Below are positions 36,503 to 51,684 of a stretch of 51,684 nt of DNA, piece after piece (position 1 is the stretch's first letter; every line of letters starts with the position of its first letter). The notes beneath the pieces were generated by a model, which saw only the letters and a list, made by a program, of their open reading frames with translations, did not search any database and was not told where the DNA came from. Both the position numbers and the translations under genes were made by a program. This DNA is from Bdellovibrionota bacterium FG-1 (lineage in GTDB: Bacteria; Bdellovibrionota; UBA1018), in NCBI GenBank assembly GCA_051382295.1, contig JBBCAW010000112.1:1-51684 (forward strand), given 5' to 3'.

Positions 36503-37303
36503 TTATTGACAGGTATAGGTCTTACCGCTTGAATCAAAGCAACGGGTCACATGTAGATCGGTAATGACCAAGCTGACGCAATTATCGGATTCAATCGGTG
36601 CATTGAAGCCAAATTTAAGTTGGCCCATATTGTTGATCGTTCGTTGAGTGGCTCCAGTAATCGGGAAAATCTCGGTTCCGTCGGTCGCATAAAATCCAGC
36701 GGGTTGCCCCTGATTGGTTGTTCCGCTTCCCGCCATATCGATTTGATTGCAGTCGAGCTTGGAGCTCACCACGTTGATCAAGCCACCCAAATACTGGGTG
36801 ACTTTCATGCTCATGCTGCCCCAGCCGGCCCCACCTACAAAATGCAGCTGATCGCCAGGGAAGACCTGAATTCTAGGGTTATAAGCACTCACGCCAGTGA
36901 TGTCACCAGGGACCAGGTAGGGAAAAGGTCCCGTCTTATTGTAAAGAAAGATCCCTTTGAAAGGATAGGTGGTGGTCCCGTAGCCGGTGCCATAATTGAG
37001 AGTTTGGACGAAACGGCAGACCTGAACTCCTTGAACCACAGTCATCTGGCCATTTGAAGCGTAACAAGCACTATTGATGTCCGCAAAGCCGGAGGCACAT
37101 CCACCCACCAGCGGAAACTGCCCAGCGGGACATCCCACAACCACTGTCGGAGTTGGCGTCGGAGTTGGGTCCGGTGTCGTCACGGGAGCCGCCGTTGCGA
37201 CCACAGGGGCCGTGGGGTCTGGTGCCTTACCGCAGGCACTCAGAAGAGTGGCCGGGGTTAAAATCAAAGTCATTACTCCGATAAAACGCGTGGTTTTTTT
37301 CAT
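36503..37303 (-). CDS. Lipoprotein with Pro/Thr linker and Cys-rich domain
   Basis: ATG 37303, lipobox LSAC, TPDPTPTPTPT. Confidence 0.7.
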   Translation of the reverse strand: MKKTTRFIGVMTLILTPATLLSACGKAPDPTAPVVATAAPVTTPDPTPTPTPTVVVGCPAGQFPLVGGCASGFADINSACYASNGQMTVVQGVQVCRFVQTLNYGTGYGTTTYPFKGIFLYNKTGPFPYLVPGDITGVSAYNPRIQVFPGDQLHFVGGAGWGSMSMKVTQYLGGLINVVSSKLDCNQIDMAGSGTTNQGQPAGFYATDGTEIFPITGATQRTINNMGQLKFGFNAPIESDNCVSLVITDLHVTRCFDSSGKTYTCQ

Positions 37304-37547
37304 AGCTAACGACGAATACTTCACGCTTTGTGCCAACGCACTCGGAGGACAAAAGAATGGCGGTCTTGATGGATAGTCTGAAAAACACATTTATTTTCAA
37401 TAGTTTGCGAGCTGGTGTTTCGTTTGTCAAAACTAGGCTTATTTCCTACCCTATTGGGATAGGTGTCTAAGACTTTGTCGACTGGCTAGCAGAAACAGTA
37501 CCAAAAACGGCTTTTCCAGGATATACGCATCAGAGAAGGCCTCCTGT

Positions 37548-37586
37548 GCCCGGGTGGTGGAATTGGTAGACACACTCGTTTCAGGG
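37548..37586 (+). pseudogene. 5' half of the disrupted host tRNA-Leu(CAG), attL side
   Basis: GCCCGGG-TG-GTGGAATTGGTAGACAC-A-CTCGT-TTCAGGG, then unrelated sequence. Its acceptor and anticodon stems pair with 47076-47120. Confidence 0.92.
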
Positions 37587-37606
37587 TTTTATGGTTCTAA
37601 AAATAT

Positions 37607-37691
37607 GCGGGCGTGGTGGAATTGGTAGACACGTACGATTCAGGGTCGTATGCCGCAAGGTGTGAAGGTTCAAGTCCTTTCGCCCGCACCA
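37607..37691 (+). tRNA. tRNA-Leu(CAG), intact and island-borne
   Basis: GCGGGCG/CGCCCGC acceptor stem with ACCA end; anticodon arm TACGA-TTCAGGG-TCGTA; long variable arm; GGTTCAAGTCC T-arm. Confidence 0.97.
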
Positions 37692-37704
37692 CTTTAGACC
37701 ATAA

Positions 37705-37717
37705 AATCAGGCAGTTA
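37705..37717 (+). promoter_or_regulatory. IHF consensus match
   Basis: AATCAGGCAGTTA fits WATCARNNNNTTR exactly. A one-mismatch copy, TTTCAACGACTTA, is at 46937-46949 near the other island end. Confidence 0.45.
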
Positions 37718-38132
37718 CAAAGTAAAGACTCTGCCGCCCCCGTCTGACGTAAGTTGAAAAACCGTGAGACCAAGTTCCCAACGGAGGAACGAATCTCATG
37801 AATGCAGTCAATCATCGTCAGGTACCTGGCGGAGTTCGAACGCTCAGTGATTCAGGAGCGGACTCGCGCCGGCCTCATCGCAGCCCGTTCGCGCGGTCGT
37901 CGCGGCGGGCGCCCCAACCTCATGGATGAAAAGAAAACTGCGCTTGCCCGCCGGATGCATGCGGACCCGGCAAACACCGCCGCCGACATTTGCTGCGCTC
38001 TCGGGGTCTTCCGGGCCACGATGTACCGGTCATTAAAAACTCGGGCCGAACTTCCCCCAGCATCCAAAACCCTATATCAAGACGTCAACTCAATTCCAGC
38101 TGAACTCTGACGGGCACGGCAGAGCATTTACG
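37718..38132 (+). mobile_element. 415-bp non-autonomous IS-derived mini-element, left copy
   Basis: 26-bp imperfect TIRs (37722-37747 and 38106-38131, 21/26). Contains the 3' half of a resolvase gene. Inverted copy at 46472-46886, with 4 substitutions noticed by eye. Confidence 0.85.
37802..38110 (+). pseudogene. C-terminal fragment of a resolvase/invertase-type serine recombinase
   Basis: LAEFERSVIQERTRAGLIAARSRGRRGGRP and HTH ICCALGVFRATMYR; the N-terminal catalytic domain is absent. Confidence 0.88.
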
Positions 38133-38211
38133 ATACCGCACCTTCGAGCAAGTTGTAGCCAATCGTGAACCAAGAAAGAAAAATTGCGCGGCGGACAAGG
38201 GCGGATTTCAT
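38133..38211 (-). pseudogene. N-terminal fragment of a CDF-like cation transporter, cut by the left mini-element
   Basis: Manual translation MKSALVRRAIFLSWFTIGYNLLEGAV; the stop codon is supplied by the element end. Confidence 0.65.
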
Positions 38212-38301
38212 CTCGATTTTAAGGGTAGCACGCGGGAGCCAAGATAATCCAAATTATGATGGCGATAATGTTGATTGGCGGGAACATATCCCTCCGCCAT
38301 T

Positions 38302-40581
38302 CTACCCCTTACCCAATCGTCCCTGACCGTCCATCGCCGCAATCGTCGCCATATTAACTACCTCGGTGACGGTTGAGTTCTGAGCCAAGACGTAAATCGG
38401 TTTCTTCATCCCGAGCAGGATGGGTCCGATGATTTCAGCTTTTCCCAGCTTTCCAAGGAGCTTGTAAGCGATGTTCGCCGATTGCAGGTCGGGAAAAATT
38501 AGAATGTTGGCGTTACCGGGAACCTGATTGAAGGGAAAACTGCTTATGGAAATTTCAGGGTCAAGCGCCGTGTCTACCTGCATCTCGCCGTCCACCACGA
38601 GTTCGGGATGCGCTTGGCGGAGCATGTCTGTCGCAGTCCTCACTTTTTTGGCAAGGGCATGGTCGTTCGATCCGAAATTCGAGAACGAAAGCATCGCTAT
38701 TCGGGGAGCGTCCATCATGAACTGCGACGCGAAGCTCGCGGTCTGAGCGGCGATCTGCGAGAGTTCTACCGCCGATGGGTCGATGTTGACTGTGGTATCA
38801 GCAAACCAGAGTATCCGCTTCTTGAGGATCACGAGGTAGACCCCGACCAGCTTCGACTCAGGCAAGACTCCGACCGTCTGAATCGCTGGGCGAATAGTCT
38901 CGGGGTAGCTTTGCGATACACCGTTGAGTAGGGCGTCGGCATCACCCATCTCAACCATCATCGGACCAAAGTAATTATTGCGCTGAATAAGCTCTCGCGC
39001 ACGAGTCAAGGTCACGCCCCTCCTTGCCCGAATCTTGACAAGACGTTCCGCATAGGTTTGCAGTCGCTCACTTGTTGACGGTTGAATGATCGGGACATCT
39101 CCCAGCGCATCTCCAAGTTCTAGCTCCTGAATCCGCCGTCGAATCTGACCCTCATCCCCAAGAAGGATGGGGTCTGCGATCTTTTCTTCCCGAAGGATTT
39201 GAGCCGCTCTCAAGATAGTCGGATTATCCCCTTCGGGGAAGACCAGCCGGTACGGATGACTGCGAACGGGAGAGTCCTTCAGCTTGTTTTTCACGTTTCG
39301 CATGAATGTGTAGCTCGACCCCAGCAAGCTCTCTAGCTGCTCTCGGTAGCGGTCGAGATCAAGTTTCCTTCGGGCAACGCCTGTCTTCATCGCGGCTTCA
39401 GCGACAGCCGGGGCGACCCACAGCAAAGCTCGTTGATCGAAGGGCTTTGGAATCAGGTACTCCCTACCGAAGTGAAACCGCTGTCCACCGTAGGCGCGAA
39501 CAACATTCTCAGGCATTTCTTGTTTAGCAAGTTGTGCAATCGCCCGAACAGCGGCGAGCTTCATTTCTTCATTGATCGTTGTCGCTCTTGAGTCGAGTGC
39601 GCCCCGAAAGATAAAGGGAAAACAAAGCACATTGTTTACCTGATTGGGGTAATCCGAGCGCCCTGTCGCCATGATCGCATCTTTTCTAACGGCGAGCACT
39701 TCCTCCGGCAACACTTCGGGATCGGGGTTTGCCATCGCAAAGATGATCGGGTCACGAGCCATCTTCCGAATCATCTCGCCGCTCAAGGCACCTTTGGCAG
39801 ATAATCCAACCACGGCGTCAGCCCCTTCCAGGGCTTGTTGAAGTGTCCGAAGTGGGGTGCTCCGAGCGAATGCGTTCTTGTACGGATTCATGCTCGCGGT
39901 GCGCCCCTCGTATATTACTCCATCGAGGTCGGTCATGATGAGGTTTTCCCGGCGAATACCGAGTTGCAGGAACATCTTCGCAGACGAGATGCACGCAGCA
40001 CCGCCGCCGACAAATACGCATTTCGCGTCTTCGATTCGTTTGCCGACGACCTCAAGCGCGTTAAGAAACGCAGCGCCGCAGATGATCGCTGTGCCGTGTT
40101 GGTCGTCATGGAAGACTGGAATCTTGAGGCGCTTTTTGAGTTCTTCTTCGATGTGGAAACACTCGGGAGCCTTGATGTCTTCCAAGTTGATTCCGCCGAA
40201 GGTCGGTTCCAATGCTTGACATACGCGGATCACATCATCGGCGCTCGGAGCATTGAGTTCGAGATCAAATACGTCGATGTCGGCGAACTTCTTGAACAGT
40301 ACCGCCTTGCCTTCCATCACAGGCTTCGCAGCGTAAGGACCGATATTGCCAAGCCCGAGCACTGCCGTTCCGTTTGAAATTACCGCAACGAGGTTTCCCT
40401 TAGCGGTGTATTCATAGATCAAGTCTTCTTTTTCAGCGATCATCCGGCAAGGTTCGGCGACGCCTGGAGAATACGCGAGGGACAGATCGTTTTGGGTGGA
40501 AACAGACTTCGAGGGAATGACCTCGATTTTTCCTTTTCGCCCCTTGGAGTGATATTCGATGGACTGCTTGTAGATGCTCAT
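38302..40581 (-). CDS. maeB: NADP-dependent malic enzyme with phosphotransacetylase-like domain
   Basis: DLSLAYSPGVA, NGTAVLGLG, GGINLEDIKAPECF, FHDDQHGTA, ATGRSDYPNQVNN and a C-terminal PTA domain; 759 aa. Confidence 0.96.
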   Translation of the reverse strand: MSIYKQSIEYHSKGRKGKIEVIPSKSVSTQNDLSLAYSPGVAEPCRMIAEKEDLIYEYTAKGNLVAVISNGTAVLGLGNIGPYAAKPVMEGKAVLFKKFADIDVFDLELNAPSADDVIRVCQALEPTFGGINLEDIKAPECFHIEEELKKRLKIPVFHDDQHGTAIICGAAFLNALEVVGKRIEDAKCVFVGGGAACISSAKMFLQLGIRRENLIMTDLDGVIYEGRTASMNPYKNAFARSTPLRTLQQALEGADAVVGLSAKGALSGEMIRKMARDPIIFAMANPDPEVLPEEVLAVRKDAIMATGRSDYPNQVNNVLCFPFIFRGALDSRATTINEEMKLAAVRAIAQLAKQEMPENVVRAYGGQRFHFGREYLIPKPFDQRALLWVAPAVAEAAMKTGVARRKLDLDRYREQLESLLGSSYTFMRNVKNKLKDSPVRSHPYRLVFPEGDNPTILRAAQILREEKIADPILLGDEGQIRRRIQELELGDALGDVPIIQPSTSERLQTYAERLVKIRARRGVTLTRARELIQRNNYFGPMMVEMGDADALLNGVSQSYPETIRPAIQTVGVLPESKLVGVYLVILKKRILWFADTTVNIDPSAVELSQIAAQTASFASQFMMDAPRIAMLSFSNFGSNDHALAKKVRTATDMLRQAHPELVVDGEMQVDTALDPEISISSFPFNQVPGNANILIFPDLQSANIAYKLLGKLGKAEIIGPILLGMKKPIYVLAQNSTVTEVVNMATIAAMDGQGRLGKG

Positions 40582-40623
40582 AGTAAATTCTCTCTCATTA
40601 CTCTCAGGGGCAAAACGCCCTGG

Positions 40624-40800
40624 TCAAGCCGACGTGCCACGATTGGGAATCCATCCTTGGGTCCATGCGAGCCAACCCATGACAAGCAGGAACGCAAAAC
40701 GTACGACAGTGAGCAAGATATAAAGCATGTAGGGGTGCTTCCACATGCTGCCTGTCCATTCGGGTTCAGATGCCGCAACTTTCTTCTTTTCAGCTTCCAT
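40624..40800 (-). CDS. 58-aa small membrane protein (below the ORF-track cutoff)
   Basis: MEAEKKKVAASEPEWTGSMWKHPYMLYILLTVVRFAFLLVMGWLAWTQGWIPNRGTSA; its ATG directly follows the upstream TGA. Confidence 0.6.
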   Translation of the reverse strand: MEAEKKKVAASEPEWTGSMWKHPYMLYILLTVVRFAFLLVMGWLAWTQGWIPNRGTSA

Positions 40801-41295
40801 TCAATTTGACCTCTGTATAGATAATTCAATTTCCAGGTAATCTCGGGCTTCCTCGACCGTTTCAAAAAAAGCGACACCGCCCTCTGTGCGCGGGGGAAAG
40901 CTCCGGCTGATTAGCTCGCTTGTCGCATCCTCCACGGGAACGACGACGAAGATCAGTTGAAGTGCTTTCGCCTTTTCCATCGCTGCCGAAAGCGCATCCC
41001 ATTCTTTGCTCACGGGGTTCAGGTGGTTATTGAGAATTAAGATGATCGCTTTGGCTTCCCGACCAGGGGATTTTGCGACCCAGCCGATAAAACTTTTGAT
41101 GTTCTCGTAAGACTGTGGCGAATCGCACGAATAGACGAATGCCCCTTTGGGTAATCTCTCACCGGACTGAGATTCGGCATAACTATCCGAAGCTGACCTT
41201 TTCTTAAAAAATCGCCCCGAACTCCAAAGGACGAGCACGATAGCAAGAGCATAGACAGGGAATAAGGGTAGCAAATGTGTCACGCCACTCACCAC
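40801..41295 (-). CDS. Membrane-anchored hypothetical protein with a possible STAS/SpoIIAA-like domain
   Basis: N-terminal TM helix; C-terminal VAFFETVEEARDYL. Confidence 0.5.
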   Translation of the reverse strand: MVSGVTHLLPLFPVYALAIVLVLWSSGRFFKKRSASDSYAESQSGERLPKGAFVYSCDSPQSYENIKSFIGWVAKSPGREAKAIILILNNHLNPVSKEWDALSAAMEKAKALQLIFVVVPVEDATSELISRSFPPRTEGGVAFFETVEEARDYLEIELSIQRSN

Positions 41296-41308
41296 TTTCT
41301 ACAGTATG

Positions 41309-42415
41309 TCATGGCTTCTCCCGTAGCCATGCGAGGACTCGTGCTTTCTCCGCCATGACATCTTTAAAACCAAGTTGAAGTAAACGCGAGGTATAGCTTT
41401 TTTCAAAAGCGAGATAGCTCAGGAGATCAGAACCATGATGCTCAGAAGCGCCAAGCCCCCGAAGAAAATGCCTGAGCACCCACGAGAAGCGCCTGAATTC
41501 ATCGACCGCAAGACGCCCCAAATCCTGCGATGGTCGGATCGCCAAGACGGGAATTCTGCGCAACTTCTCTGGGTGTTCCCGACGGTCCTCATCTGTTAAA
41601 AGGCTTAAAGTTTGATTTATCCTCATCATGCGCTCAAGATCGGAGTCCAGCGCATCCATGAACAGTGCGTTCAGCAGCACACCCGAAATATCTGCCAACT
41701 GCACCGAGCGCATCCGAAACGACTGATTCAACTCAAATGTTTCAATCGGGCTTCGGTGATACCGAACGCCAATGGCAATCACCTTGCTAGAACCCAGATG
41801 GATAGCAGGACTCAAAGGCGAGGTCATTCGCACGGCTCCGTCGCCATAATACGCGCCCTGAATCTTGATGGGTGGAAAGAGCAACGGAATCGCTGAAGAT
41901 GCAAGGACGTGCTTCAGGGTGAGGTTGGTACGCTTGCCTATACGATGGCTTCTCATCCAGGGCTGAAGGCTGGGCACGCCGTCGAAAAAAGTAACCGTAC
42001 TCCCAGTGCCGTAGTGTGTTGTGGTCATGGCGACGCCGTGGAGAAGTCCCGATTCGATGTGACGCTGGATTTGTCTAAAGTCTAATTTCTTGAGAAGATA
42101 ACGGACGAGTGGTGCTGTGCTAAGTAACTGCGTAGTTGGACGAGCGTTAAATATCCCGCCAAGTCCGAGTTGAAGAATGAGTTTAGATGCTGTTCCGAAA
42201 ATTCGGGCGCTACTTGCTTCCATCACGTCATCGAGCTTTATCTCATTCCAACTGCTCCATAGGTCTTGGAGTGCGTCAGGCATTTGATTCGCCCGTGAAG
42301 CCAAGTATGCTCCGTTGATGGCTCCGCCAGAAATACCGCAAATGATCTGAAACGCGGAACGCGCACCGCCTCCCGAGAGAACTAGACCGACCTTTTCCGT
42401 GCCCTTACGGTCCAT
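41309..42415 (-). CDS. Patatin-like phospholipase with an apparent in-frame internal deletion
   Basis: LVLSGGGAR, GISGG (GxSxG), ASSAIP and DGA motifs. The GGGxR and GxSxG motifs are abnormally close. Confidence 0.8.
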   Translation of the reverse strand: MDRKGTEKVGLVLSGGGARSAFQIICGISGGAINGAYLASRANQMPDALQDLWSSWNEIKLDDVMEASSARIFGTASKLILQLGLGGIFNARPTTQLLSTAPLVRYLLKKLDFRQIQRHIESGLLHGVAMTTTHYGTGSTVTFFDGVPSLQPWMRSHRIGKRTNLTLKHVLASSAIPLLFPPIKIQGAYYGDGAVRMTSPLSPAIHLGSSKVIAIGVRYHRSPIETFELNQSFRMRSVQLADISGVLLNALFMDALDSDLERMMRINQTLSLLTDEDRREHPEKLRRIPVLAIRPSQDLGRLAVDEFRRFSWVLRHFLRGLGASEHHGSDLLSYLAFEKSYTSRLLQLGFKDVMAEKARVLAWLREKP

Positions 42416-42650
42416 CACTACCTCGGTGTTCGTCGACGAGTTTATGAACGTCCTCGAAATCCTCGACTTTGTAGCGAGTACCGAGAGCCTTGTTAACCGC
42501 GTCCAAAAACTCTCGCGTGATCGGAGCGCGTACCTCAATCCAATTCAGTTGCCCCGCATACATCTGTGGCGTTCCATTTACCATCGGGCAGCGATGAAGC
42601 TCGCCGTACATCACAGCGACGACGCAACTAAACTCCGGCAAAATCTTCAT
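42405..42650 (-). CDS. Small hypothetical protein
   Basis: ATG 42650 overlaps the upstream stop (ATGA) and has SD GGAGGG; 81 aa. Confidence 0.55.
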   Translation of the reverse strand: MKILPEFSCVVAVMYGELHRCPMVNGTPQMYAGQLNWIEVRAPITREFLDAVNKALGTRYKVEDFEDVHKLVDEHRGSDGP

Positions 42651-43369
42651 CTCCCCTCCGTTCCCTGTGTCGAGGTCAACATGGACGTATTGGAGTCCAT
42701 GAGCGACCTTCTCAACGTCACAGCGGCGACGAAAACATTCTTTACGGTGAGAATGACTCCATCCGTGTGCTGCCACAGCCATCTTCTTGCGCTATCGGGG
42801 GTTGGAAACAGACGGAACTCCGAACGATTTTCTCGGAGGCATTTCGCAATATTTTTGCGTGATGGGAAGGAAATGACCGCCTGATCGGGTTGAAGCGCAA
42901 ACGCCTGATCGAACCCAAACCGAAGATGCACGGCTACCGGGTCGTCTGGACAGCGATATTCAATGCCGATTTTAGTGAGAAGAAGCGTCGGAACAACGAT
43001 GGCATCCAAGCCCGACTGCGCGTAGATGCGGCACTTCTCGCTATCCATCGGATAGGAAGTTTCTTGGAGCGTCAGCCCTGCTGTTGCAATGATGTTCTCC
43101 GCGCTATCTCGTTCAACCCCAGGAAGTTTACTCAGAAGATCGTCCAGCTTCTCGCGGGAATATCCCAGGCGTCGGGAGATAAGATCGAGGGATAGTGATT
43201 CGCCCTCGGCTAACCAATAGAGCAGGTTGAAAAGCAGGTGCTTCTCAAGTGGATCACGCGGAAAGTAAGCGATCAGGTGCTTAGAGAGTTCGGAGGCATT
43301 CACGCGCTTGACCTCCCCCTTGTGGACAACCGCTTTCAAGATGAGGATTTCGGCTACGTTTTTCGCCAC
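42647..43369 (-). CDS. Organomercurial lyase MerB-like protein lacking the catalytic cysteines
   Basis: LAEGESLS...ENIIATAGLTLQETSY...IYAQSGLDAIVVPTLL...RCP aligns by eye with MerB LAKGRPVS...GNIIGYGLTLRETSY...LYAWCALDTLIFPAL...HCA. Confidence 0.72.
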   Translation of the reverse strand: MAKNVAEILILKAVVHKGEVKRVNASELSKHLIAYFPRDPLEKHLLFNLLYWLAEGESLSLDLISRRLGYSREKLDDLLSKLPGVERDSAENIIATAGLTLQETSYPMDSEKCRIYAQSGLDAIVVPTLLLTKIGIEYRCPDDPVAVHLRFGFDQAFALQPDQAVISFPSRKNIAKCLRENRSEFRLFPTPDSARRWLWQHTDGVILTVKNVFVAAVTLRRSLMDSNTSMLTSTQGTEGR

Positions 43370-43468
43370 GACGAACGCCTCCGTTCGACTTTGACATATA
43401 GAGTAGCGATAAGATCAAGACGATGATCCCGAACCAGAGGATTTTCGGTCCCGTGGCGCTGCCTGACC

Positions 43469-43681
43469 TCATGATGACTTTGCTCCTGATCCGCTTTTAT
43501 GGTGGTCTGGCGGAAGGAAATCTTTGTGATGCGCGATAAATCGTTTGAGTGCTGTATTTGCCAGTTCCGAAACGGAGATGTGGCTATAGGACTCCATTGC
43601 CTTCAGTGTTGTGACCACCTGGGTTTCTAGCGTGACGGTGAGCTTCTTTGTCTTCCCTTTTAGGGGGTAATCGTCACGCAT
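43469..43681 (-). CDS. Small ribbon-helix-helix-like protein
   Basis: KKLTVTLE strand followed by helices ..SVSELANTALKRFI. Confidence 0.55.
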   Translation of the reverse strand: MRDDYPLKGKTKKLTVTLETQVVTTLKAMESYSHISVSELANTALKRFIAHHKDFLPPDHHKSGSGAKSS

Positions 43682-43703
43682 CTTGAGTCATCCCAGTTTC
43701 TAA

Positions 43704-44522
43704 TCATTGCTGTTTCACCATGCTGGTACTTTGAACGACCAGAATACGTTTGCAGTTCGGGCATTGTTCAATCGCTTTCGAGCGAGAAAGTTCATTTACG
43801 AACTGAGCCGGGAGAATCATATTGCATCCCGCACAGGAACTTCCGCACACCTGGACCACGGCAATCCCGCCCCGTGCTCCCGCGATTCTCTGGTAGGAAA
43901 ATAGGTATTTTGGCGGGATGAGGCACTGAATGGGCGCTTTTTGCGCTTCAACCTCTTGCACCGCCGACTCGATCTCCTTGTCCCTGACTTTCTTGAGAGC
44001 AGAAGAATTCTCAATTTCAGATTCAAGGGCTACACGTCTGTTCTCAAGGTCCGTGAGGCTGGCGCTAACTGTTACGGCGTCCGTCCTGATGCTCACTTCT
44101 TTCAGTTCCAGGCTTTCCTTAAATTTCTTGAGTTGGTCGATTTCTTTGATCGTCGCCTGAAAGACCTCAGGACTCTTAATGTCCTTCACTGCGGACTCGG
44201 CTTTCATGAGGCGTTGACGACAGGATTCCAAGGATGCGTTCGTCTGACCCCTGCTTAAACGCAGATCATCGAGCACCTTCTTCTTTTCCTGCTCCTGAAG
44301 TCGAATTCGAGCGAGTTCCTCTTGCTTGGCTTTGAGATCGGGAATGAAAAGCGCAGCTTCACGAAGGGCGATGATTTTTCGATCAAGTCCCTGAAGTTGC
44401 CAAAGGTGTTCTAAAATTACTTTCACAGAACTCAAAGACACCCCCTTATGTTCACGGCTCGCCTCCCGATGAGGGCGGCACTGGCGCGTGCTTAAATCGA
44501 AAATAGTTGCCTCCGTACTCAT
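43704..44522 (-). CDS. Coiled-coil protein with C4-type zinc ribbon (DUF164/CT398-like)
   Basis: LWQLQGLD, long coiled coil, CAGCNMILP...CPNCKRIL. Confidence 0.85.
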   Translation of the reverse strand: MSTEATIFDLSTRQCRPHREASREHKGVSLSSVKVILEHLWQLQGLDRKIIALREAALFIPDLKAKQEELARIRLQEQEKKKVLDDLRLSRGQTNASLESCRQRLMKAESAVKDIKSPEVFQATIKEIDQLKKFKESLELKEVSIRTDAVTVSASLTDLENRRVALESEIENSSALKKVRDKEIESAVQEVEAQKAPIQCLIPPKYLFSYQRIAGARGGIAVVQVCGSSCAGCNMILPAQFVNELSRSKAIEQCPNCKRILVVQSTSMVKQQ

Positions 44523-44926
44523 GCGACCGCCTCCAATTCGCTCAGTGCCTTCTGTACGCGACGAGCGACGAAAAAAACGTCAAACGCGGACATAAACCGT
44601 ACCCCTGGCATCCCTCGAAGAATGACTAGGCGGTGGTCCTGAGCGGAAGCGTTTGAAAATACAAAAATGGGAACCTGTGGAAAACGTGTGCGGACATCTC
44701 GGACAATGTTGCACCCTCCCAACGCCGAAAGCGCCAAATCGAGGTCGGTGATAAGAGCATCAAACGTCTGTGTAGAGCGAGCAAAAGTCAGCGCGTCCTC
44801 CGCATTGGAGAAGACGCAGACTCGAAACATTTGACCCAATGCGTTTTCCATCCAAAGGCGCAGAAGTGACGGGTCATAAACGAGAACAGCTAGAGGTTTT
44901 TCTTGCTCGTTTCTTGAGACTTTCAC
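44519..44926 (-). CDS. Single-domain response-regulator-like receiver (atypical)
   Basis: FDALITDLDL...PQVPIFVFS; conserved Lys not evident. Confidence 0.65.
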   Translation of the reverse strand: MKVSRNEQEKPLAVLVYDPSLLRLWMENALGQMFRVCVFSNAEDALTFARSTQTFDALITDLDLALSALGGCNIVRDVRTRFPQVPIFVFSNASAQDHRLVILRGMPGVRFMSAFDVFFVARRVQKALSELEAVA

Positions 44927-44948
44927 GGCACTCCCAGCAGGAAAACTA

Positions 44949-44999
44949 TTGATTTTGTCTTCCCTTTATTGGTATCATTTATTGCAACTGATTGCAATA
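44949..44999 (+). promoter_or_regulatory. Putative promoter with palindromic operator (Fur-family-like box)
   Basis: TTGATT-18 bp-TATCAT followed by TATTGCAA-CTGA-TTGCAATA (44980-44999). Confidence 0.55.
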
Positions 45000-45092
45000 G
45001 CGACCCGTGGCTTTAAGGCAAATGTCTTTACCACCACGACCGCAAGAAGTAATGGGAACGAACTCTTGCGACAACTTGTTTGGGAAATTGAG

Positions 45093-45809
45093 ATGGAGAT
45101 AGAAGCCCTGCAAAGAAAGCTCATTCCAGAGGAAAAAAAGACAGAGAGAATCAAAAAGCTCGTTGAAGACCTGCGCGGTGGGAGAAAGGTAACTGACTTC
45201 CGATTCGATCAGATTTATCCCTCGGCGATTCGCAAACTCTCCGAAACGCATTGGACGCCCGTTGAGGTCGCCATTCGAGCGGCTGAACTTTTGGTCACGA
45301 GCGGAAAGTCGCGGGTATTGGACGTGGGCGCGGGGTGTGGAAAATTCTGTACGGTTGCCGCGCTTTCGAGTCACGGGCACTTCATTGGAATCGAGCAGCG
45401 CCCTCACTTGTCTGAGGTCGCTCGTAAGACGGCTGAAGAACTTGGGGCAAATCAAGCGTCTTTCATTCAAGGGAACATGGCAGACTTAGATTGGTCGTTT
45501 TTCGATTCCTTTTACCTGTTCAATCCCTTTTACGAGAACAAGATGAAGTCGATTCGGATTGACGAAACCGTGTCCCATAACCAGGATAAATTTAATCGGT
45601 ACATCGAGATCGTGCAAACCAAGCTCCGGGTCGCTCGCCCTGGTACGCAAGTAGCGACTTATCATGGTTTCGGGGGAGATATGCCCGTAGGCTACCACCG
45701 CATGAAGCGGGAGCCGATTGGCACAAGCTATCTTGAGTTGTGGGTTAAGCTCGACTTGCCGAAACCCGTTCTGAAAAGAACCAGTGAAAGACCCTCGGCG
45801 GTAGTATAG
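45093..45809 (+). CDS. Class I SAM-dependent methyltransferase
   Basis: HWTP, VLDVGAGCGKF, GIEQR and YLFNPF motifs. Confidence 0.82.
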   Translation: MEIEALQRKLIPEEKKTERIKKLVEDLRGGRKVTDFRFDQIYPSAIRKLSETHWTPVEVAIRAAELLVTSGKSRVLDVGAGCGKFCTVAALSSHGHFIGIEQRPHLSEVARKTAEELGANQASFIQGNMADLDWSFFDSFYLFNPFYENKMKSIRIDETVSHNQDKFNRYIEIVQTKLRVARPGTQVATYHGFGGDMPVGYHRMKREPIGTSYLELWVKLDLPKPVLKRTSERPSAVV

Positions 45810-45826
45810 TTTATGGAACATTGTGA

Positions 45827-46279
45827 ATGAAAAGGCATAAGGATTTATTAGAAATTCTAAGGTCCAATAAGATGCGGATTACTCCCGCACGCCGTCTGCT
45901 TCTCCAATTCATCTTGGATAATAAGTCGCGCCAGATTTCAATGGAGGAAATTCAGGAATTCCTCGGCAAGCAACTTGTGGGCGTGGATCGTTCGAGTATT
46001 TATCGAAATGTTGATGTATTTCAAAAGCTGGACATCCTTCAAGAGCTAAACCTTCCGACCATTGGAAAGCGATACCAGTACGTCCTCGACCGCAAAGTTC
46101 ACCACTTTTACATCTGCAAAGCATGTGGAAAAGCTAATCGCGGCAACGAGGAACTGTTCAACAAAATTGAGTCGGCACTCAAGGACGTTCACGGTTTTTC
46201 CAAGGCGAACCTCTCGGTCGTGTTCTACGGACTTTGCGCCAAATGTGGGAACAACAACGGAAATGCGAAGCTGCCATGA
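45827..46279 (+). CDS. Fur family transcriptional regulator (Zur/Fur/PerR-like)
   Basis: RITPARR, SSIYRN, HHFYICKACG and FYGLCAKC. Confidence 0.9.
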   Translation: MKRHKDLLEILRSNKMRITPARRLLLQFILDNKSRQISMEEIQEFLGKQLVGVDRSSIYRNVDVFQKLDILQELNLPTIGKRYQYVLDRKVHHFYICKACGKANRGNEELFNKIESALKDVHGFSKANLSVVFYGLCAKCGNNNGNAKLP

Positions 46280-46471
46280 ATGGCGGCGCTTCTTTCTTTG
46301 TCAGACTCTCACGCGCCCTTAGCTCGAAGTGCCCTGTTTGTGGGCGGGGAAGGCTATTTGCGCAACTTCACCGAATGCATAAAGTTTCCGAGCTTCTTCT
46401 ACCTCTATCAAAGTGCGAAGTTTGCGGCTTTCGATTCGGACGGCAACCTGGATATTACTTCGGCGTTGTTA
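46276..46471 (+). pseudogene. DUF983-like gene truncated by the right mini-element
   Basis: ATGA overlap with the Fur gene; CPVCGRGRLF...CEVCGFRFGRQPGYYFG; the stop TAA lies inside the element end and the expected TM part is missing. Confidence 0.72.
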
Positions 46472-46886
46472 CGTAAATGCTCTGCCGTGCCCGTCAGAGT
46501 TCAGCTGGAATTGAGTTGACGTCTTGATATAGGGTTTTGGATGCTGGGGGAAGTTCGGCCCGAGTTTTTAATGACCGGTACATCGTGGCCCGGGAGACCC
46601 CGAGAGCGCAGCACATGTCGGCGGCGGTGTTTGCCGGGTCCGCATGCATCCGGCGGGCAAGCGCAGTTTTCTTTTTATCCATGAGGTTGGGGCGCCCGCC
46701 GCGACGACCGCGCGAACGGGCTGCGATGAGGCCGGCGCGAGTCCGCTCCTGAATCACTGAGCGTTCGAACTCCGCCAGGTACCTGACGATGATTGACTGC
46801 ATTCATGAGATTCGTTCCTCCGTGGGGAACTTGGTCTCACGGTTTTTCAACTTACGTCAGACGGGGGCGGCAGAGTCTTTACTTTG
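46472..46886 (-). mobile_element. 415-bp non-autonomous IS-derived mini-element, right inverted copy
   Basis: Reverse complement of 37718-38132; contains the same resolvase fragment (46494-46802). Confidence 0.85.
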
Positions 46887-47033
46887 CACCACGGGTGGAA
46901 CAAACTGGTGGTGGCTTGTACGTTTGGCGAACGTCATTTCAACGACTTAGCAACGTCATGATAGTTGTTCAAAACGCTTCAACCAAAGGAAAGCTCGGTC
47001 AAGCTTCTCTTTTGGTTTTAGTTAGTTAGTCCG

Positions 47034-47063
47034 TTGACAATGAATGCCCTGAAGATAGATACT
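47034..47063 (+). promoter_or_regulatory. Outward-facing sigma70-like promoter at the island right end
   Basis: TTGACA (47034-47039), 18-bp spacer, GATACT (47058-47063), ending 5 bp before the attR core. Confidence 0.5.
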
Positions 47064-47068
47064 TCTAA

Positions 47069-47120
47069 TTCAGGGGCGAGCGCGAAAGCAATGCTGGTTC
47101 GAGTCCAGTCCCGGGCACCA
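47069..47120 (+). pseudogene. 3' half of the disrupted host tRNA-Leu(CAG), attR side
   Basis: TTCAGGG-GCGAG-CGCGAAAGCAAT-GCTGGTTCGAGTCCAGT-CCCGGGC-ACCA. Confidence 0.92.
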
Positions 47121-47199
47121 TTACAATGCGAGACGAGCAAGATGCGGAAAGTGGGCTTTTATTAAAAACCAAAGGTCATCCCACCCTACAAATAAGCCA

Positions 47200-47343
47200 C
47201 TTCCCCTCGAAATCGCAAACGAGATGTATAAGTTTGCCTTTCTGTCGAAGCAACACCAGTTTGCTAAGAAGTTTCCCCACCTCACCAAAGAAGAGCTTCA
47301 TCAAAAAACGATCGCCTACTTCGTCGCTCTTCCCAAGGGTTGA
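47200..47343 (+). pseudogene. 5'-truncated small antitoxin-like gene, copy 1
   Basis: Frame LPLEIANEMYKFAFLSKQHQFAKKFPHLTKEELHQKTIAYFVALPKG* ends 2 bp before the nucleotidyltransferase ATG. Confidence 0.5.
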
Positions 47344-47345
47344 GT

Positions 47346-47834
47346 ATGCAAGGCCTAATCGACGCACTTCGAGACACAACCAATCGACTTCATGATGCAG
47401 GAATGGAATACTATCTCGTTGTCCAGATCAAATCCCTCCAAATACCAATTTTTCAAAAACTATTCGATGTCGAGGAATACTATTGCCCTCCCAAGGAGGT
47501 CATCACCGACGAAGTGATCCGGGGTGGGATGTTCAATCCGATCCACCAGGCCTCGGGAGTGAAGATTGACATCGTTCCACTCAAGAAAACTGAATTTGCA
47601 GAGTCGGAGTTTTCCAGGCGCAAGAAAATTGAAATCCTTCCTGGGCTCGAGGTTTACGTTGCCTCGCCGGAGGACATTATTCTCAAGAAGCTCGACTACT
47701 ATCGTGAAGGTGGATCCGATAAACACCTCATCGATATTCGAGGGATGCTTGCAGAGACGGCAATTGATCAGGCGTATCTCTAGAGTTGGATCGCTCAGCT
47801 GGGCCTTTCCTCGGAGTGGGCGAAGGTCAGATAA
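47346..47834 (+). pseudogene. Nucleotidyltransferase (DUF6036/AbiEii-like) pseudogene
   Basis: GVKIDIVP and VASPEDIILKKLDYYREGGSDKHLIDI. The GS...DxD catalytic segment is missing after YYLV. Premature TAG at 47781 where copy 2 has CAG. Confidence 0.72.
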
Positions 47835-48022
47835 ATAATCATTCCATCTAGTTACAACTTCCAACCCTCCTCATCCAGGGGGGGTTGACACTAACAGGTA
47901 CTGCGTCGCTCACCACGTGGTTAGATTCGCGCAATGGAGACACAGTGTCCACTCTGCCACGCTATTCATTTTCTACAAATAATAGATAATAAAGGAAGAC
48001 CATGTCCATTTAGGAGGCGTTT

Positions 48023-51000
48023 ATGCAGCGTTCTTTGTTAATAGCGATTTCTCTCGCAGCGTTAATCTTAACCGGTTGCAAGGCATCCCCCACTGAGTCC
48101 CCCACCGCACTCACTGCGGTTGACGCGAGCCCCTCACCCAGCGTTTCCGCAAGCGCGACTCCCAAAGCAAGCCCAACCGCACTACCCGGCGCCAGTCCGT
48201 CGGCCTCGGCCTCTGCATCTGCGACACCTTCTGCGATACCTTCTGCAAGTCCTACAGCTACGGCTACGGCCACACCGTCAGCAACTCCCACCGCGACCCC
48301 TACTTATTCGCTCGCGCTAGCGGTCAAAGCAGGAAGTTCAAATAGTATTACTGCCAATGGATCATCAACGACCGTTCTTCAAGCACTGGTCTTGGACCAA
48401 GACTTAAATCCAGGATCGGGTCAGTCCGTCACCCTTAATATTCCGGCAAGTGGCGGAACTACGTCCTCACCTGCCACCAGCAACGGATCAGGAATCGCTG
48501 AGTTTACGATTACGAGTTCGACCGTGGCCGGTGCTTATTCCTACACCGCTACCGCAAACGCCGTGACCTCAAGTAGTACCGCACTCACTTTTACGTCGGT
48601 TGCTCCGACACTCACAGTATCACCCATGATTAGTTTAGTTGGCCTCACAGAAACTGAAACTCTCAGTACGTCAGGAGGAACCGGACCCTATAGTTATTCG
48701 ATCGTGAGTGGCCCCGGTGATGTCAACGCAGCGTCTGGACTCTTCACGGCCTCCTCAGGGAGCGTGGGTGCTTATGTAAAAATCAAAGCCCAAGACTCGT
48801 TGGGAGCTGTGGGCTACGGAACGGTTAAACTCGGCATCGCGGCAGCTTCCTATAACATGTGCGCGGGTACCACGGCGACTTCCGCTTCTGGAACGCTTTA
48901 CGACTCAGGTGGTGCAGGCGCGGACTATAACCCCAGTGAAAATTGCGGATTTTTGATCAGCTCACTTGGAGACATCACGGCCAGCTTCGATTCTTTTGGA
49001 ACAGAAAATAACTATGACTTTGTTAGAATTTACGACGGCTCTAACGCCTCTGGCAGACTCCTTGGGTCTTTTTCGGGTTCGATCACGCCCGGCAATCAAA
49101 CCGCAACGAGTGGTCAGATGTATGTGGCTTTTACCAGTGATGGAAGCGTTCAAGGCACGGGCTTTGTCATGCATTGGACAACCACTGGTCCCACCGAAAC
49201 TAGTCCAGTCGTGGCCAACTTTAGCGTCTCGCCTTGGATCGGGCTCAGTGGCGCGCTTTTTAACTTCACGGATTCGTCTTCCAATTCGCCACGCACTTGG
49301 AATTGGAGCACCTCTACCCTTGCAAAAACAGCCAACCCCAGCAGCGCCTTAACTGGAGCAGGCTTAACGCCCGTATCCCTCACGGTTTCGAACGCTCTCG
49401 GGACCGACATCAAGACCAACAACGTTTATTTAGGACCCCTCGCCACAGATACCTTTAAGATGTGTACGGACACCACCGCGACCACAAGGAGCGGGATCTT
49501 GGTGGACTCGGGGGATACTACGGCCAACTACAACCCAAGCGAAAATTGCTCCCTACTCATTCAACCCGCCGAAGCCACGAGTATCACTCTTTCTTTTTCA
49601 TCCTTCGCAACTGAACCCAATTATGACCGTTTGCAGGTCTATGATGGCACAAATTCAAGCGGTACGCTTTTAGGCACGTTCTCGGGATCAACCGCGCCGG
49701 CACCGGTTACTGGAACGAGCGGAAGTCTGTATATCACCTTTACCAGCGATGGCTCCGTTCAAGCTGCGGGTTTCAATGCGTCGTGGACCAGCAGTGGCCC
49801 AGTCATTACTCCTGTCGCTAATTTTTTTGCAAGTCAGACCTCTGTTGTTGTTGGAGAAACCATCACCTTCAGAGATATCTCCAACTACGGTCCGACCTCC
49901 TGGGCCTGGGATTTTGAAAATACAGGAGCCACGGATTCCACTCAGCAAAACCCCAGTCACGCTTTCGCCACTGCGGGAGCAAAAACCGTAAAACTCACCT
50001 CAACCAATGCCGTAGGCTCAAACTCTAAAACCAAGACCGCGTATATTACCGTATCCAATTTTAGTAAGATGTGTACGGATACCTCTTCCAACGCGACCTC
50101 AGGGATTCTTTTCGACTCTGGGGGCCCGAGCGGAAATTACTCAGATAATGAAAACTGCGGGTTTCTGATTCAACTCGGCGCTGGACACACGGTTCAACTC
50201 GGTTTGAGTGCTTTTAGCCTCGAAGAAGGTGCCGACTTCTTGAAAATCTACGATGGGGCAGATGCGACGGGCACCCCCCTCCATACTGGAGCCGGATTCA
50301 CAGGCGGTAACCTTCCATCATCAGTGATGGCTCAATCTGGCTCCATGTACCTGGTCATGACCTCCGACTCGTCGGTAACTAGACCAGGATTCAAAGCGAA
50401 TTGGAGCGAGGTGGGTGTCGGTACCATTGCTAATTTGAGCCTCTGGCTAAAGGCCGACTCCCTCTCCTTGAATGAGGGCGATCCTGTCGCAACTTGGACT
50501 GACAGTAGTGGAAATAATCATAGTGCAACCCAGGCTGATGCATCCAAGCAGCCTACCTACTCGGGCACGGCGATTAACAACCACCCTGCCGTCAATTTTG
50601 CTGGATCGCCCCGATCCATGCGCATTGATTCAAATCTTTCCATCGCCAGGCCCTTTACTGCCTTCATCGTTAATGTTTGGCACGGCGGAGCCACAGGAAG
50701 AACACTGTCGAGCGTTTCCACGAACTGGTTGCTCGGCTTTTGGCAAGGAAATGTTGCCTTTTTTAACGGAGGATTTGTCTACCAAACTGCTGCCACCCAA
50801 AATGTCACTTATCTCTCCGAGGCGATTAACACGAACGCCTATTCAAAATATTTTGTGCATGGCGTACTCGCCGCAACGTCAGGGGCAGGAGGGGATCCCG
50901 GCACCCTCGAATTAGGAAGTTCTGTCTATAGCGAATATAACAATGGGGATATCGCGGAGGTCGTCATCTATAGCTCCGAACTTTCAGATAGTGATCGGGC

Positions 51001-51043
51001 CACTGTCGAAACCTATCTTAACTTGAAATATTCGATTTGGTGA
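48023..51043 (+). CDS. Large surface lipoprotein: S/T/P/A linker, Ig-like domains, 3 CUB, 2 PKD and a C-terminal LamG/ConA-like domain
   Basis: Lipobox LTGC; three repeats of C...SG.L.DSG....Y...ENC...D....YDG...TSD.SV...GF...W (CUB); ANF....FTD.S...P.TW.W (PKD); LWLKADSL...WTDSSGN...GDIAEVVIY. Confidence 0.85.
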   Translation: MQRSLLIAISLAALILTGCKASPTESPTALTAVDASPSPSVSASATPKASPTALPGASPSASASASATPSAIPSASPTATATATPSATPTATPTYSLALAVKAGSSNSITANGSSTTVLQALVLDQDLNPGSGQSVTLNIPASGGTTSSPATSNGSGIAEFTITSSTVAGAYSYTATANAVTSSSTALTFTSVAPTLTVSPMISLVGLTETETLSTSGGTGPYSYSIVSGPGDVNAASGLFTASSGSVGAYVKIKAQDSLGAVGYGTVKLGIAAASYNMCAGTTATSASGTLYDSGGAGADYNPSENCGFLISSLGDITASFDSFGTENNYDFVRIYDGSNASGRLLGSFSGSITPGNQTATSGQMYVAFTSDGSVQGTGFVMHWTTTGPTETSPVVANFSVSPWIGLSGALFNFTDSSSNSPRTWNWSTSTLAKTANPSSALTGAGLTPVSLTVSNALGTDIKTNNVYLGPLATDTFKMCTDTTATTRSGILVDSGDTTANYNPSENCSLLIQPAEATSITLSFSSFATEPNYDRLQVYDGTNSSGTLLGTFSGSTAPAPVTGTSGSLYITFTSDGSVQAAGFNASWTSSGPVITPVANFFASQTSVVVGETITFRDISNYGPTSWAWDFENTGATDSTQQNPSHAFATAGAKTVKLTSTNAVGSNSKTKTAYITVSNFSKMCTDTSSNATSGILFDSGGPSGNYSDNENCGFLIQLGAGHTVQLGLSAFSLEEGADFLKIYDGADATGTPLHTGAGFTGGNLPSSVMAQSGSMYLVMTSDSSVTRPGFKANWSEVGVGTIANLSLWLKADSLSLNEGDPVATWTDSSGNNHSATQADASKQPTYSGTAINNHPAVNFAGSPRSMRIDSNLSIARPFTAFIVNVWHGGATGRTLSSVSTNWLLGFWQGNVAFFNGGFVYQTAATQNVTYLSEAINTNAYSKYFVHGVLAATSGAGGDPGTLELGSSVYSEYNNGDIAEVVIYSSELSDSDRATVETYLNLKYSIW

Positions 51044-51224
51044 TTCAGCTGCTTTTTTGCCAATAATAGTTCGATTTTTCAACAAAATGGACACCCTATC
51101 ATTCACTCATGGGCTTTTCACGCGCTTGCGCCCGCCTTGGAACCCTGTTAATTGAAATGATGAGCCTGGTAGACACGCATGGTTCAGGGCGGTGTGCCGA
51201 AAGCCTCCGGCAGGACTCAATGTC

Positions 51225-51503
51225 CTTCCCCTCGAAATCGCAAACGAGATGTATAAGTTTGCCTTTCTGTCGAAGCAACACCAGTTTGCTAAGAAGTTTC
51301 CCCACCTCACCAAAGAAGAGCTTCATCAAAAAACGGTCGCCTACTTCGTCGCCCTTCCCAAGGATTGAGTATGCAAGGCCTAATCGACCCAGGATATCTC
51401 CAGAGTTGGGTCACGAAGCTGGGCCTTACCGCAGAGTGGGCGAAGGTACTATAAGCAATCATTCCAACTCGTTACGGCTCTCAACATCACCCCACCCAGG
51501 GGG
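51225..51503 (+). repeat. Second, internally deleted copy of the antitoxin/nucleotidyltransferase locus (direct repeat of 47200-47883)
   Basis: 51225-51388 is near-identical to 47200-47363 (164 bp); 51390-51503 is a more diverged match to 47769-47883; about 400 bp in between is absent. Confidence 0.85.
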
Positions 51504-51571
51504 CGCGATGTTTCTCCCTATTCCCAAAAAGACACCTTAAGTTTTCACCCACGTTTTCCTGGAGGCATGGA

Positions 51572-51684
51572 GGGCGCCTTTTCCTTGCGATTTACGGGGT
51601 AACGAAATTATCGTTCCCCAAATTGCTATATTTAACGAAAGGAAAAAGCGCCCATGGGTAAACTATTTTGCGGAATCGATTTTC
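51572..51684 (+). mobile_element. Probable IS110-family left end: structured non-coding region plus transposase start (runs off the window)
   Basis: ATG 51654 gives MGKLFCGIDF followed by a codon starting with C, fitting the RuvC-like GID motif. A long upstream stem-loop covers the ribosome-binding region. Only 10 codons are visible. Confidence 0.5.

What the first reader, a model, noticed from the sequence alone, without database searches (positions are those of the whole stretch)
37548..47120. Host tRNA-Leu(CAG) split at the anticodon loop by an island that supplies a whole foreign tRNA-Leu(CAG) instead of repairing the target
Seen: joining 37548-37586 to 47076-47120 gives a complete 84-nt tRNA-Leu(CAG). 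GCCCGGG pairs with CCCGGGC, CTCGT pairs with GCGAG, and it ends in CCA. Only the 7-nt loop TTCAGGG is duplicated. Twenty bases inside the left junction is an intact tRNA-Leu(CAG) with different acceptor, anticodon, variable and T stems. Established: tRNA-targeting tyrosine integrases usually carry a copy of the displaced tRNA half so the gene is rebuilt, and a 7-bp anticodon-loop overlap is a known crossover class. Inference: this element destroys the target and complements it with its own same-anticodon gene, placed behind the host tRNA promoter. If it is the only Leu-CAG gene, imprecise loss of the island would be costly, which could stabilise it and amount to tRNA gene replacement. I recall a similar strategy in some actinobacteriophages, so the novelty may be the lineage and element type rather than the principle.
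Basis: partly seen in the sequence, partly recalled or inferred. Interest (0 to 1): 0.92.

Follow-up and report, generated by a model that had tools for sequence, protein, structure and literature searches.

The report
Decayed island replaces split leucine tRNA
A piece of mobile DNA cut this uncultured bacterium's leucine tRNA gene in two and supplies a different complete copy right at the cut, a trick already published for some phages that turns out to recur in many bacterial genomes and may explain why related bacteria carry swapped versions of this gene.

Summary
Observation confirmed. Window 37548-37586 joined to 47076-47120 is an 84-nt tRNA-Leu(CAG) of the type most relatives carry. Only the 7-nt loop is duplicated, and the whole gene at 37607 is the assembly's only Leu-CAG. 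The 9.5-kb island has no integrase. Two inverted IS66-type mini-elements bracket metabolic cargo and sit where the integrase should be, while the right arm is homologous to arms at this genome's Leu(TAG) gene. It works like published tRNA-dependent lysogeny (PMC10865867; Leu-UAG cases in Sinorhizobium, PMC11476347) but is not a phage. The layout 'host half + short arm + whole same-anticodon tRNA' occurs in 89 of 120 GTDB hits, and this scan found it before on other DNA. Added here: the island tRNA is 85/85 identical to the chromosomal gene of a relative, and congeners carry wholly different Leu-CAG genes at one locus, which suggests gene turnover. The stabilising role is weaker than proposed because Leu(TAG) is present. 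No reads were available. New variant of a known kind.

The parts
37548..37586 (+). Orphan 5' half of host tRNA-Leu(CAG), ending in the 7-nt loop (attL core 37580-37586)
   Evidence: 39/39 identical to the 5' half of intact genes in G002, G009, G018, G039
37587..37606 (+). 20-nt AT-rich element arm; 37587-37601 is an imperfect inverted repeat of 37693-37706
   Evidence: p about 0.01 against shuffles; not general, 2 of 61 loci
37607..37691 (+). Whole element-borne tRNA-Leu(CAG), the only one in the assembly
   Evidence: 85/85 to G081, 75/85 to the host's Leu(GAG)
37705..37717 (+). IHF-site-like motif, one mismatch (consensus recalled; weak)
   Evidence: background 0.97 per kb in the window
37722..38131 (+). 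Left IS66-type mini-element: GTAA ends, internal deletion, C-terminal remnant of a serine resolvase
   Evidence: sibling element on C86 carries a DDE_Tnp_IS66 match
38302..46472 (.). Cargo: malic enzyme-PTA fusion, 164-aa ORF, patatin, MerB-like protein, DUF6364-like ORF, CT398-like zinc-ribbon protein, receiver-like ORF, methyltransferase, Fur, DUF983-like ORF cut by the IS
   Evidence: Pfam; second copies of host genes; same cluster in G079:C190, malic enzyme 82%
46473..46882 (-). Right IS66-type mini-element, 99% identical inverted copy with the same deletion
46883..47068 (+). attR arm; homologous to arms beside orphan Leu(TAG) halves on C21 and C12; contains a sigma70-like site TTGACA-18-GATACT (47034-47063) pointing across the core
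   Evidence: score 72 against shuffle maximum 32
47069..47120 (+). attR core (47069-47075) and orphan 3' half of the host tRNA with CCA; one extra A after the variable stem
   Evidence: extra A absent from the 53 host-type genes listed (read by eye)
47135..47838 (+). Flanking module outside the island: small ORF plus AbiEii/DUF6036-like nucleotidyltransferase, here with a 60-bp deletion
   Evidence: follows the intact host-type tRNA in G018 and an island-type fragment in G079
51111..51503 (+). Third, decayed tRNA-Leu(CAG) fragment (51168-51202) with a deleted copy of the flanking module: scar of an older integration

Best explanation
This is the relic of an integrative element of the 'split and replace' kind. 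Shown: the host tRNA-Leu(CAG) is cut at its 7-nt anticodon loop, neither junction rebuilds it, and a whole Leu(CAG) gene with different stems lies in the element's arm 20 nt from the crossover. Inferred: a lambda-type tyrosine integrase encoded just inside attR recombined the 7-bp loop, which put the element's tRNA directly behind the host tRNA promoter. The orphan 5' half becomes a leader removed by normal 5' processing. In the free circle the sigma70-like site in the other arm would drive the same tRNA. Different stems keep the spare gene from being a good target and make recombination with the orphan half non-productive (hybrids keep only 4 of 7 acceptor pairs). Later, IS66-type mini-elements removed the integrase and most of the element and left an 8.3-kb metabolic cassette between them, so the spare tRNA is now in effect the host's gene.
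For: Rejoined tRNA and exact 7-bp duplication. Host-type gene intact in 53 of the 96 Leu(CAG) rows from 94 of 116 genomes of the order (counted by eye). In G018 the intact gene is followed by the same right flank; rnr lies divergently upstream in G026, G034, G086, G091. The attR arm is homologous to arms at Leu(TAG) in the same genome, where a 438-aa tyrosine recombinase lies next to the tRNA. Same layout in 89 of 120 GTDB hits and 1 of 3 metagenome hits with a full host-like half. In 7 of 10 Flavobacteriaceae genomes searched, the 3' half lay 51-115 kb downstream (distances by hand), rejoined to a tRNA, and an inward-pointing integrase ORF began 128-243 bp inside attR (6 of the 7 scanned, all with integrase domains). 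The window's IS starts 186 bp inside. Promoter-like site: 10/12, within 30 nt of the core in 0.6% of 20,000 shuffles (chosen after the fact). Published precedent: PMC10865867, PMC11476347.
Against: No integrase or remnant in the island, so the enzyme is inferred. No close relative gives a true empty site with both flanks; 0 of 115 other genomes of the order show the adjacent half-plus-whole layout. The nearest relative by the neighbouring ABC1 gene (G091, 79%) carries an island-like gene (74/85), and a third Leu(CAG) type lies decayed at 51168, so which type was ancestral here is uncertain. No target duplication flanks the IS pair. No host promoter consensus was found upstream of 37548. Expression is untested.
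Confidence: 0.8

Rival explanations
1. Two ordinary restoring elements, one duplicating the 5' half and one the 3' half, integrated in tandem and left two orphan halves around a whole tRNA, as appears to be the case at this genome's Leu(TAG) gene.
For: At Leu(TAG) an orphan 5' half (C12), a whole gene and an orphan 3' half (C21) coexist, with arms homologous to the window's attR arm. The locus is a hot spot with older scars.
Against: Restoring halves must match the host's: at Leu(TAG) the whole gene's 5' half is identical to the orphan. Here both halves of the whole gene differ from the orphans (61/85) while pairing with each other, and the orphans pair with each other; half-hybrids keep 4 of 7 acceptor pairs.
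Confidence: 0.07
2. Misassembly or strain mixing in the metagenome-assembled genome joined pieces from two organisms or hid a larger element behind the IS repeats.
For: Contamination 5.0%; cargo genes duplicate host genes; the first 107 bp of the IS occur on four other contigs; no reads could be checked.
Against: The deleted IS form was seen only in these two copies, so the path attL-IS-cargo-IS-attR is forced apart from the orientation of the cargo (inference). A chance join would not give an exact 7-bp loop duplication with complementary halves. The layout recurs in complete isolate genomes.
Confidence: 0.06
3. The insert is an intron-like or split-gene arrangement: the two host halves still yield a working tRNA by splicing or by annealing in trans, and the second gene is incidental.
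For: The cut is in the anticodon loop; a promoter-like site would start a transcript at the 3' half; the two halves pair through the acceptor in a co-fold.
Against: Rfam finds no intron in 37300-51684; introns do not duplicate the loop (recalled); the co-fold does not give a cloverleaf; the 3' half has an extra base seen in none of 53 host-type genes, which suggests decay.
Confidence: 0.03
4. On function only: the spare tRNA works as an addiction module that holds the island in place.
For: Sole Leu(CAG); CTG is 17.6% of Leu codons in 1,945 long ORFs; a whole Leu(CAG) was found in 94 of 116 genomes of the order; lethality without the phage tRNA is shown for mycobacteriophages (PMC10865867).
Against: tRNA-Leu(TAG) is present and can wobble on CUG (recalled); precise excision restores the host gene; the IS pair lets everything but 135 bp at the left end be lost without touching the tRNA, and the integrase was in fact lost.
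Confidence: 0.2

Closest known systems
tRNA-dependent lysogeny of actinobacteriophages (Fionnbharth K4, cluster L, Cain, Gaia; Guerrero-Bustamante & Hatfull 2024, PMC10865867; read: abstract and parts 1, 2, 4, 5 of 8)
   Same: Short common core (8-17 bp there, 7 bp here), target not rebuilt, element supplies a same-anticodon tRNA of different sequence; Gaia does so at tRNA-Leu(CAA) with an 8-bp core.
   Different: No phage genes and no integrase here. The spare gene sits 20 nt from the crossover behind the host half, whereas Fionnbharth's overlaps gene 37 and has its own promoter. Anticodon CAG; requirement for viability untested.
Lo5R7ANS-like prophages of Sinorhizobium meliloti AK21 and RU11/001 (PMC11476347; passages read)
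   Same: Integration in the central part of a tRNA-Leu gene inactivates it; a prophage-borne Leu(UAG) gene, 80.6% alike and closer to other species' genes, replaces it. The authors call this substitution and diversification of tRNA genes.
   Different: Intact prophages, anticodon UAG; the passages read do not give the position of the spare gene. Here a non-phage relic whose spare gene matches a member of the same family.
Classical tDNA-targeting genomic islands (Islander, PMC4383910, part 1 of 3 read; anticodon-loop sublocation class of Williams 2002, recalled, paper not held)
   Same: tRNA gene target, 7-bp crossover in the anticodon loop, arm DNA of about 130-190 bp at each end.
   Different: Classical attP restores the gene and the island encodes an integrase; neither holds, so Islander's signature would miss it.
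IS66-family insertion sequences and composite transposons (family features recalled; Pfam PF03050)
   Same: GTAA terminal inverted repeats, OrfA-like start, IS66 transposase match in a sibling copy; two inverted copies enclose cargo cut mid-gene.
   Different: These copies are 410 bp, lack a transposase, carry a resolvase remnant and show no target duplication.

Membership tests
tRNA-dependent lysogeny | Temperate phage | tested here: not met
   No phage gene among the island ORFs scanned; 0 hits in IMG/VR for two patterns; no phage record covers 80% of the junction
tRNA-dependent lysogeny | Element-encoded tyrosine integrase | tested here: not met
   0 of 27 PF00589 matches in the genome lie on this contig; present in the 6 analogous Flavobacteriaceae ORFs scanned
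tRNA-dependent lysogeny | Short core, host tRNA not rebuilt at either junction | tested here: met
   7-bp core; ARAGORN calls no gene at either half
tRNA-dependent lysogeny | Element encodes a tRNA of the disrupted isotype | tested here: met
   37607-37691, Leu(cag)
tRNA-dependent lysogeny | Disrupted gene is non-redundant | tested here: inconclusive
   Only Leu(CAG) in a 97.7% complete assembly, but Leu(TAG) is present
tRNA-dependent lysogeny | Element tRNA is required for survival of integrants | not testable with these tools
   Needs genetics
Classical tDNA island (Islander definition) | Target gene restored by an att-borne fragment | tested here: not met
Classical tDNA island (Islander definition) | Integrase gene inside the island | tested here: not met
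IS66 family (the two inverted copies) | GTAA-starting terminal inverted repeats shared with an element carrying IS66 transposase sequence | tested here: met
   (end motif recalled; the paper search found nothing)
IS66 family (the two inverted copies) | Intact transposase genes and 8-bp target duplication | tested here: not met
   non-autonomous derivatives at best
Group I/II intron or trans-spliced split tRNA | Ribozyme core or splicing motif at the junction, no loop duplication | tested here: not met
   Rfam; 7-nt duplication

The most novel reading that the evidence does not exclude
Elements that carry a whole tRNA inside their attachment arm are a general vehicle of tRNA gene turnover in bacteria, and this locus is a half-finished swap. 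The spare gene is dropped behind the host promoter, the element decays, and a 59-bp deletion between the two gene starts (shared TGC) would leave a scarless replacement. That would explain why members of one genus in this family carry wholly different Leu(CAG) genes at the same locus (G077/G078 64/87; G100/G102 72/85), why element-borne genes are identical to sole chromosomal genes elsewhere (window/G081 85/85; L271/G058 86/86), and why gene type is scattered on the tree of the neighbouring ABC1 gene. Capture by the element from such hosts, or conversion from the Leu(GAG) paralogue, are not excluded.
Probability: 0.35. Interest if true: 0.75.

Novelty: new variant of a known kind. Interest (0 to 1): 0.5.

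Why it matters
The principle is published for phages. This case and its relatives show a compact non-phage form, with the spare gene built into the attachment arm, at many loci that standard island finders miss because they look for a restored tRNA plus fragment. If the turnover reading holds, tRNA-Leu genes are swapped whole between lineages in place, so they are poor markers of descent, and the process can be tested in cultured Flavobacteriaceae that carry intact elements.

Tried and rejected
Reads: no sequencing run was listed for 37300-47250 and no RNA holder was listed, so junctions and expression were not checked. Intact sister element with integrase: none found by a metagenome pattern for the island-type tRNA behind a loop (0 hits), by two IMG/VR patterns, or by the attR arm against 116 genomes (only two short matches at E 0.002-0.005 outside G000). 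Composite-transposon insertion with target duplication: not found. Flanking inverted repeat as a general processing stem: rejected, p at most 0.01 in 2 of 61 loci and in 2 of 48 ordinary tRNAs of the genome, one being this gene. Scars of host-type halves in genomes with replaced genes: none in G005, G080, G081, G115 (exact 14-nt pattern) or G058, G075, G078, G091, G100, which counts against recent replacement by this route. Synteny of G058's tRNA with three congeners: no shared genes. The careful tree did not finish; the quick tree was used. My own integrase profile hit only 5 of the 62 long GTDB loci within 10 kb of attL, and it is weak on Bacteroidota integrases. The unknown lipoprotein gave only a 0.78 lead in the Atlas. 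Paper searches with no hit; one search gave only eukaryotic papers. Williams 2002 is not held. Supplements of the papers were not read and may list more non-restoring elements.

Full report
Observation. Joined in a script, 37548-37586 and 47076-47120 give an 84-nt tRNA-Leu(cag) by ARAGORN; the two junctions share only TTCAGGG. The gene at 37607-37691 is the only Leu(CAG) among the 48 tRNA genes of the assembly, which also has Leu TAG, TAA, GAG and CAA. The two Leu(CAG) sequences share 61 of 85 positions.

Which one is the host's. A pattern search of 116 genomes of the order found whole-looking Leu(CAG) matches in 94 genomes (96 rows). By eye, 53 rows have the anticodon stem of the split gene. 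The rejoined gene is 82/84 identical to G086 and 80/84 to G002. The locus is conserved next to rnr and an ABC1 kinase, and in G018 the intact gene is followed by the same nucleotidyltransferase module that follows the 3' half here. So the split gene is host-type and in its usual place. No relative was close enough to show both flanks at once. The nearest relative by ABC1 (G091) has an island-like gene, so the deeper history is not settled.

Anatomy of the island (9,489 bp between cores). There is no integrase: none of 27 PF00589 matches in the genome is on this contig, and Pfam shows metabolic and regulatory cargo. Two 99% identical inverted copies of a 410-bp element lie at 37722-38131 and 46473-46882. 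They have GTAA ends and the same internal deletion; a longer copy with a resolvase lies on C58 and a sibling on C86 carries IS66 transposase sequence. The family assignment rests on that match and on recalled end motifs. The cargo repeats host genes (malic enzyme 69%, Fur 64%) and is part of a cluster found in the relative G079 between succinate dehydrogenase and complex-I-like genes (malic enzyme 82%). Its last ORF is cut by the right IS. Only 135 bp on the left and 186 bp on the right lie outside the IS pair. The right arm aligns over 124 columns with the arm beside an orphan Leu(TAG) 3' half on C21 (score 72, shuffle maximum 32) and more weakly with the arm beside an orphan 5' half on C12 (49 against 32). 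It is therefore an attachment arm of a tRNA-Leu-targeting element family present in this genome. It also holds a sigma70-like site (10 of 12) that ends 5 nt before the core; in the circular form it would precede the island tRNA (0.6% of 20,000 shuffles, chosen after the fact).

How common the layout is. Of these, 95 have a full D-arm in the half; 89 are followed by a whole gene with the same anticodon (TAG 54, CAA 25, GAG 5, TAA 4, CAG 1; the CAG case spans an assembly gap and is an artefact); 88 of 89 differ from the half in acceptor or anticodon stem; they form 61 distinct types. The other 31 rows were not counted. Most titled records are Flavobacteriaceae, with Alphaproteobacteria, Acidobacteria, Bacillota and others. 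I looked for the 3' half in 10 Flavobacteriaceae genomes and found it in 7, 51-115 kb downstream (by hand). All 7 rejoin to a tRNA and have an inward-pointing ORF starting 128-243 bp inside attR; 6 were scanned and all carry integrase domains, one being split. A TraG/D-like gene lies inside 3 of 5 of these islands (positions compared by hand), which points to conjugative or mobilisable elements. The window's right IS begins where such an integrase would start, so loss by IS activity is the simplest account (inference). In the window's own order the adjacent layout occurs only in G000 (1 of 116). A metagenome scan for the CAG form gave 3 contigs, one with a full host-like half.

Where the spare gene comes from. 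It is 85/85 identical to the gene of G081 and 82/85 to those of G005 and G080, which lie at the conserved locus without halves. G079 has an intact host-type gene and a 69/69 fragment of the island type. The element-borne gene of metagenome contig L271 is 86/86 identical to the only Leu(CAG) of G058, whose congeners carry the host type in 15 of 16 genomes with a match, though synteny was not shown. Within two genera, congeners share the locus but not the gene: G077/G078 64/87, G100/G102 72/85. On a quick ABC1 tree (34 rows, 30 labelled; the 30 best hits plus 4 earlier loci) host type versus other needs 9 changes, matched or beaten by 88 of 300 shuffles, and a single host-type clade is rejected (p-AU 7e-6). 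This shows repeated replacement or a paraphyletic ancestral type, on one marker with many open forks. It does not show direction or mechanism. The island type is also 75/85 like the host's Leu(GAG), so recruitment from that paralogue is a live source. No scars were found in nine genomes with other types.

Mechanism. Shown: split, non-repair, sole spare gene, arm homology, IS brackets. Inferred: tyrosine-integrase crossover in the loop, co-transcription of host half and spare gene, later loss of the integrase. Hybrids made by recombination between the half and the spare keep only 4 of 7 acceptor pairs unless the crossover falls in the first two bases, where both genes follow TGC; a clean 59-bp deletion there would finish the swap. 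Dependence on the spare is plausible (CTG is 17.6% of Leu codons) but Leu(TAG) can wobble on CUG (recalled), so an addiction effect is doubtful.

Known systems. tRNA-dependent lysogeny has the same logic and includes Gaia at tRNA-Leu(CAA) with an 8-bp core; the paper also cites Lactobacillus prophage Lj965 (PMC10865867, parts 1, 2, 4, 5 of 8 read). Two Sinorhizobium prophages inactivate Leu(UAG) by central integration and supply a replacement (PMC11476347, passages). PMC12429752 (passages) reports no such case in its prophages; PMC9897764 (passages) covers ordinary fragments; Islander defines the restoring class (PMC4383910, part 1 of 3). Searches listed no description of the arm-embedded non-phage form; supplements were not read and subscription papers are not held. 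Earlier notes of this scan describe the same design at CAA and TAA anticodons in other bacteria; they are unchecked AI notes and were seen after my own scan.

Verdict. Real, and a new variant of a known kind: it works like tRNA-dependent lysogeny but fails membership on phage and integrase. This copy is a decayed instance. Its added value is the CAG anticodon and the family-level hint of whole-gene turnover. Interest 0.5.

Noticed in passing
window 51111-51503; L188 (G079:C77) 327-1236: Third, decayed Leu(CAG) fragment preceded by about 60 nt that also precede an island-type tRNA fragment in G079; both are followed by the same nucleotidyltransferase module. Suggests a second element family at this tRNA that crosses over near the D-loop.
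   Followed up: partly
G000 C12:1-440 and C21:112662-121721: At tRNA-Leu(TAG) an orphan 5' half with duplicated upstream DNA, a 438-aa integrase, a whole gene and an orphan 3' half 7.5 kb on: probably two tandem restoring elements, so the working gene may be element-derived in both halves.
   Followed up: partly
L112 (Aquimarina MAG): Two successive 5' halves before the next gene start: probable integration of a second element into the first element's spare tRNA.
   Followed up: no
L195 (G051:C5 5779-6063) and L194 (G120:C114 184-1015): A 5' part of Leu(CAG) followed after 162 nt, or after about 700 nt, by an identical-type whole gene: small 5'-duplicating relics.
   Followed up: no
window 38132-46472: Cargo between 99% identical inverted repeats could invert by homologous recombination; its orientation in the assembly is not secure.
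   Followed up: no
window 43704-44926 and 42647-43369; L218: A mobile cluster of Fur, methyltransferase, receiver-like protein, CT398-like zinc-ribbon protein, MerB-like protein and malic enzyme recurs as extra copies in G079 and in part in G098; function unexplained.
   Followed up: partly
window 48023-51043: 1006-aa protein with Big_1, three CUB and PKD domains between the two copies of the nucleotidyltransferase module; probably cargo of the older element.
   Followed up: no
The host lineage was not otherwise determined.
   Followed up: partly
G000 C72:11342-11438 and C5:10882-10955: ARAGORN calls a 97-nt tRNA-Pro(GGG) and a tRNA-Gly(ACC), both unusual.
   Followed up: no
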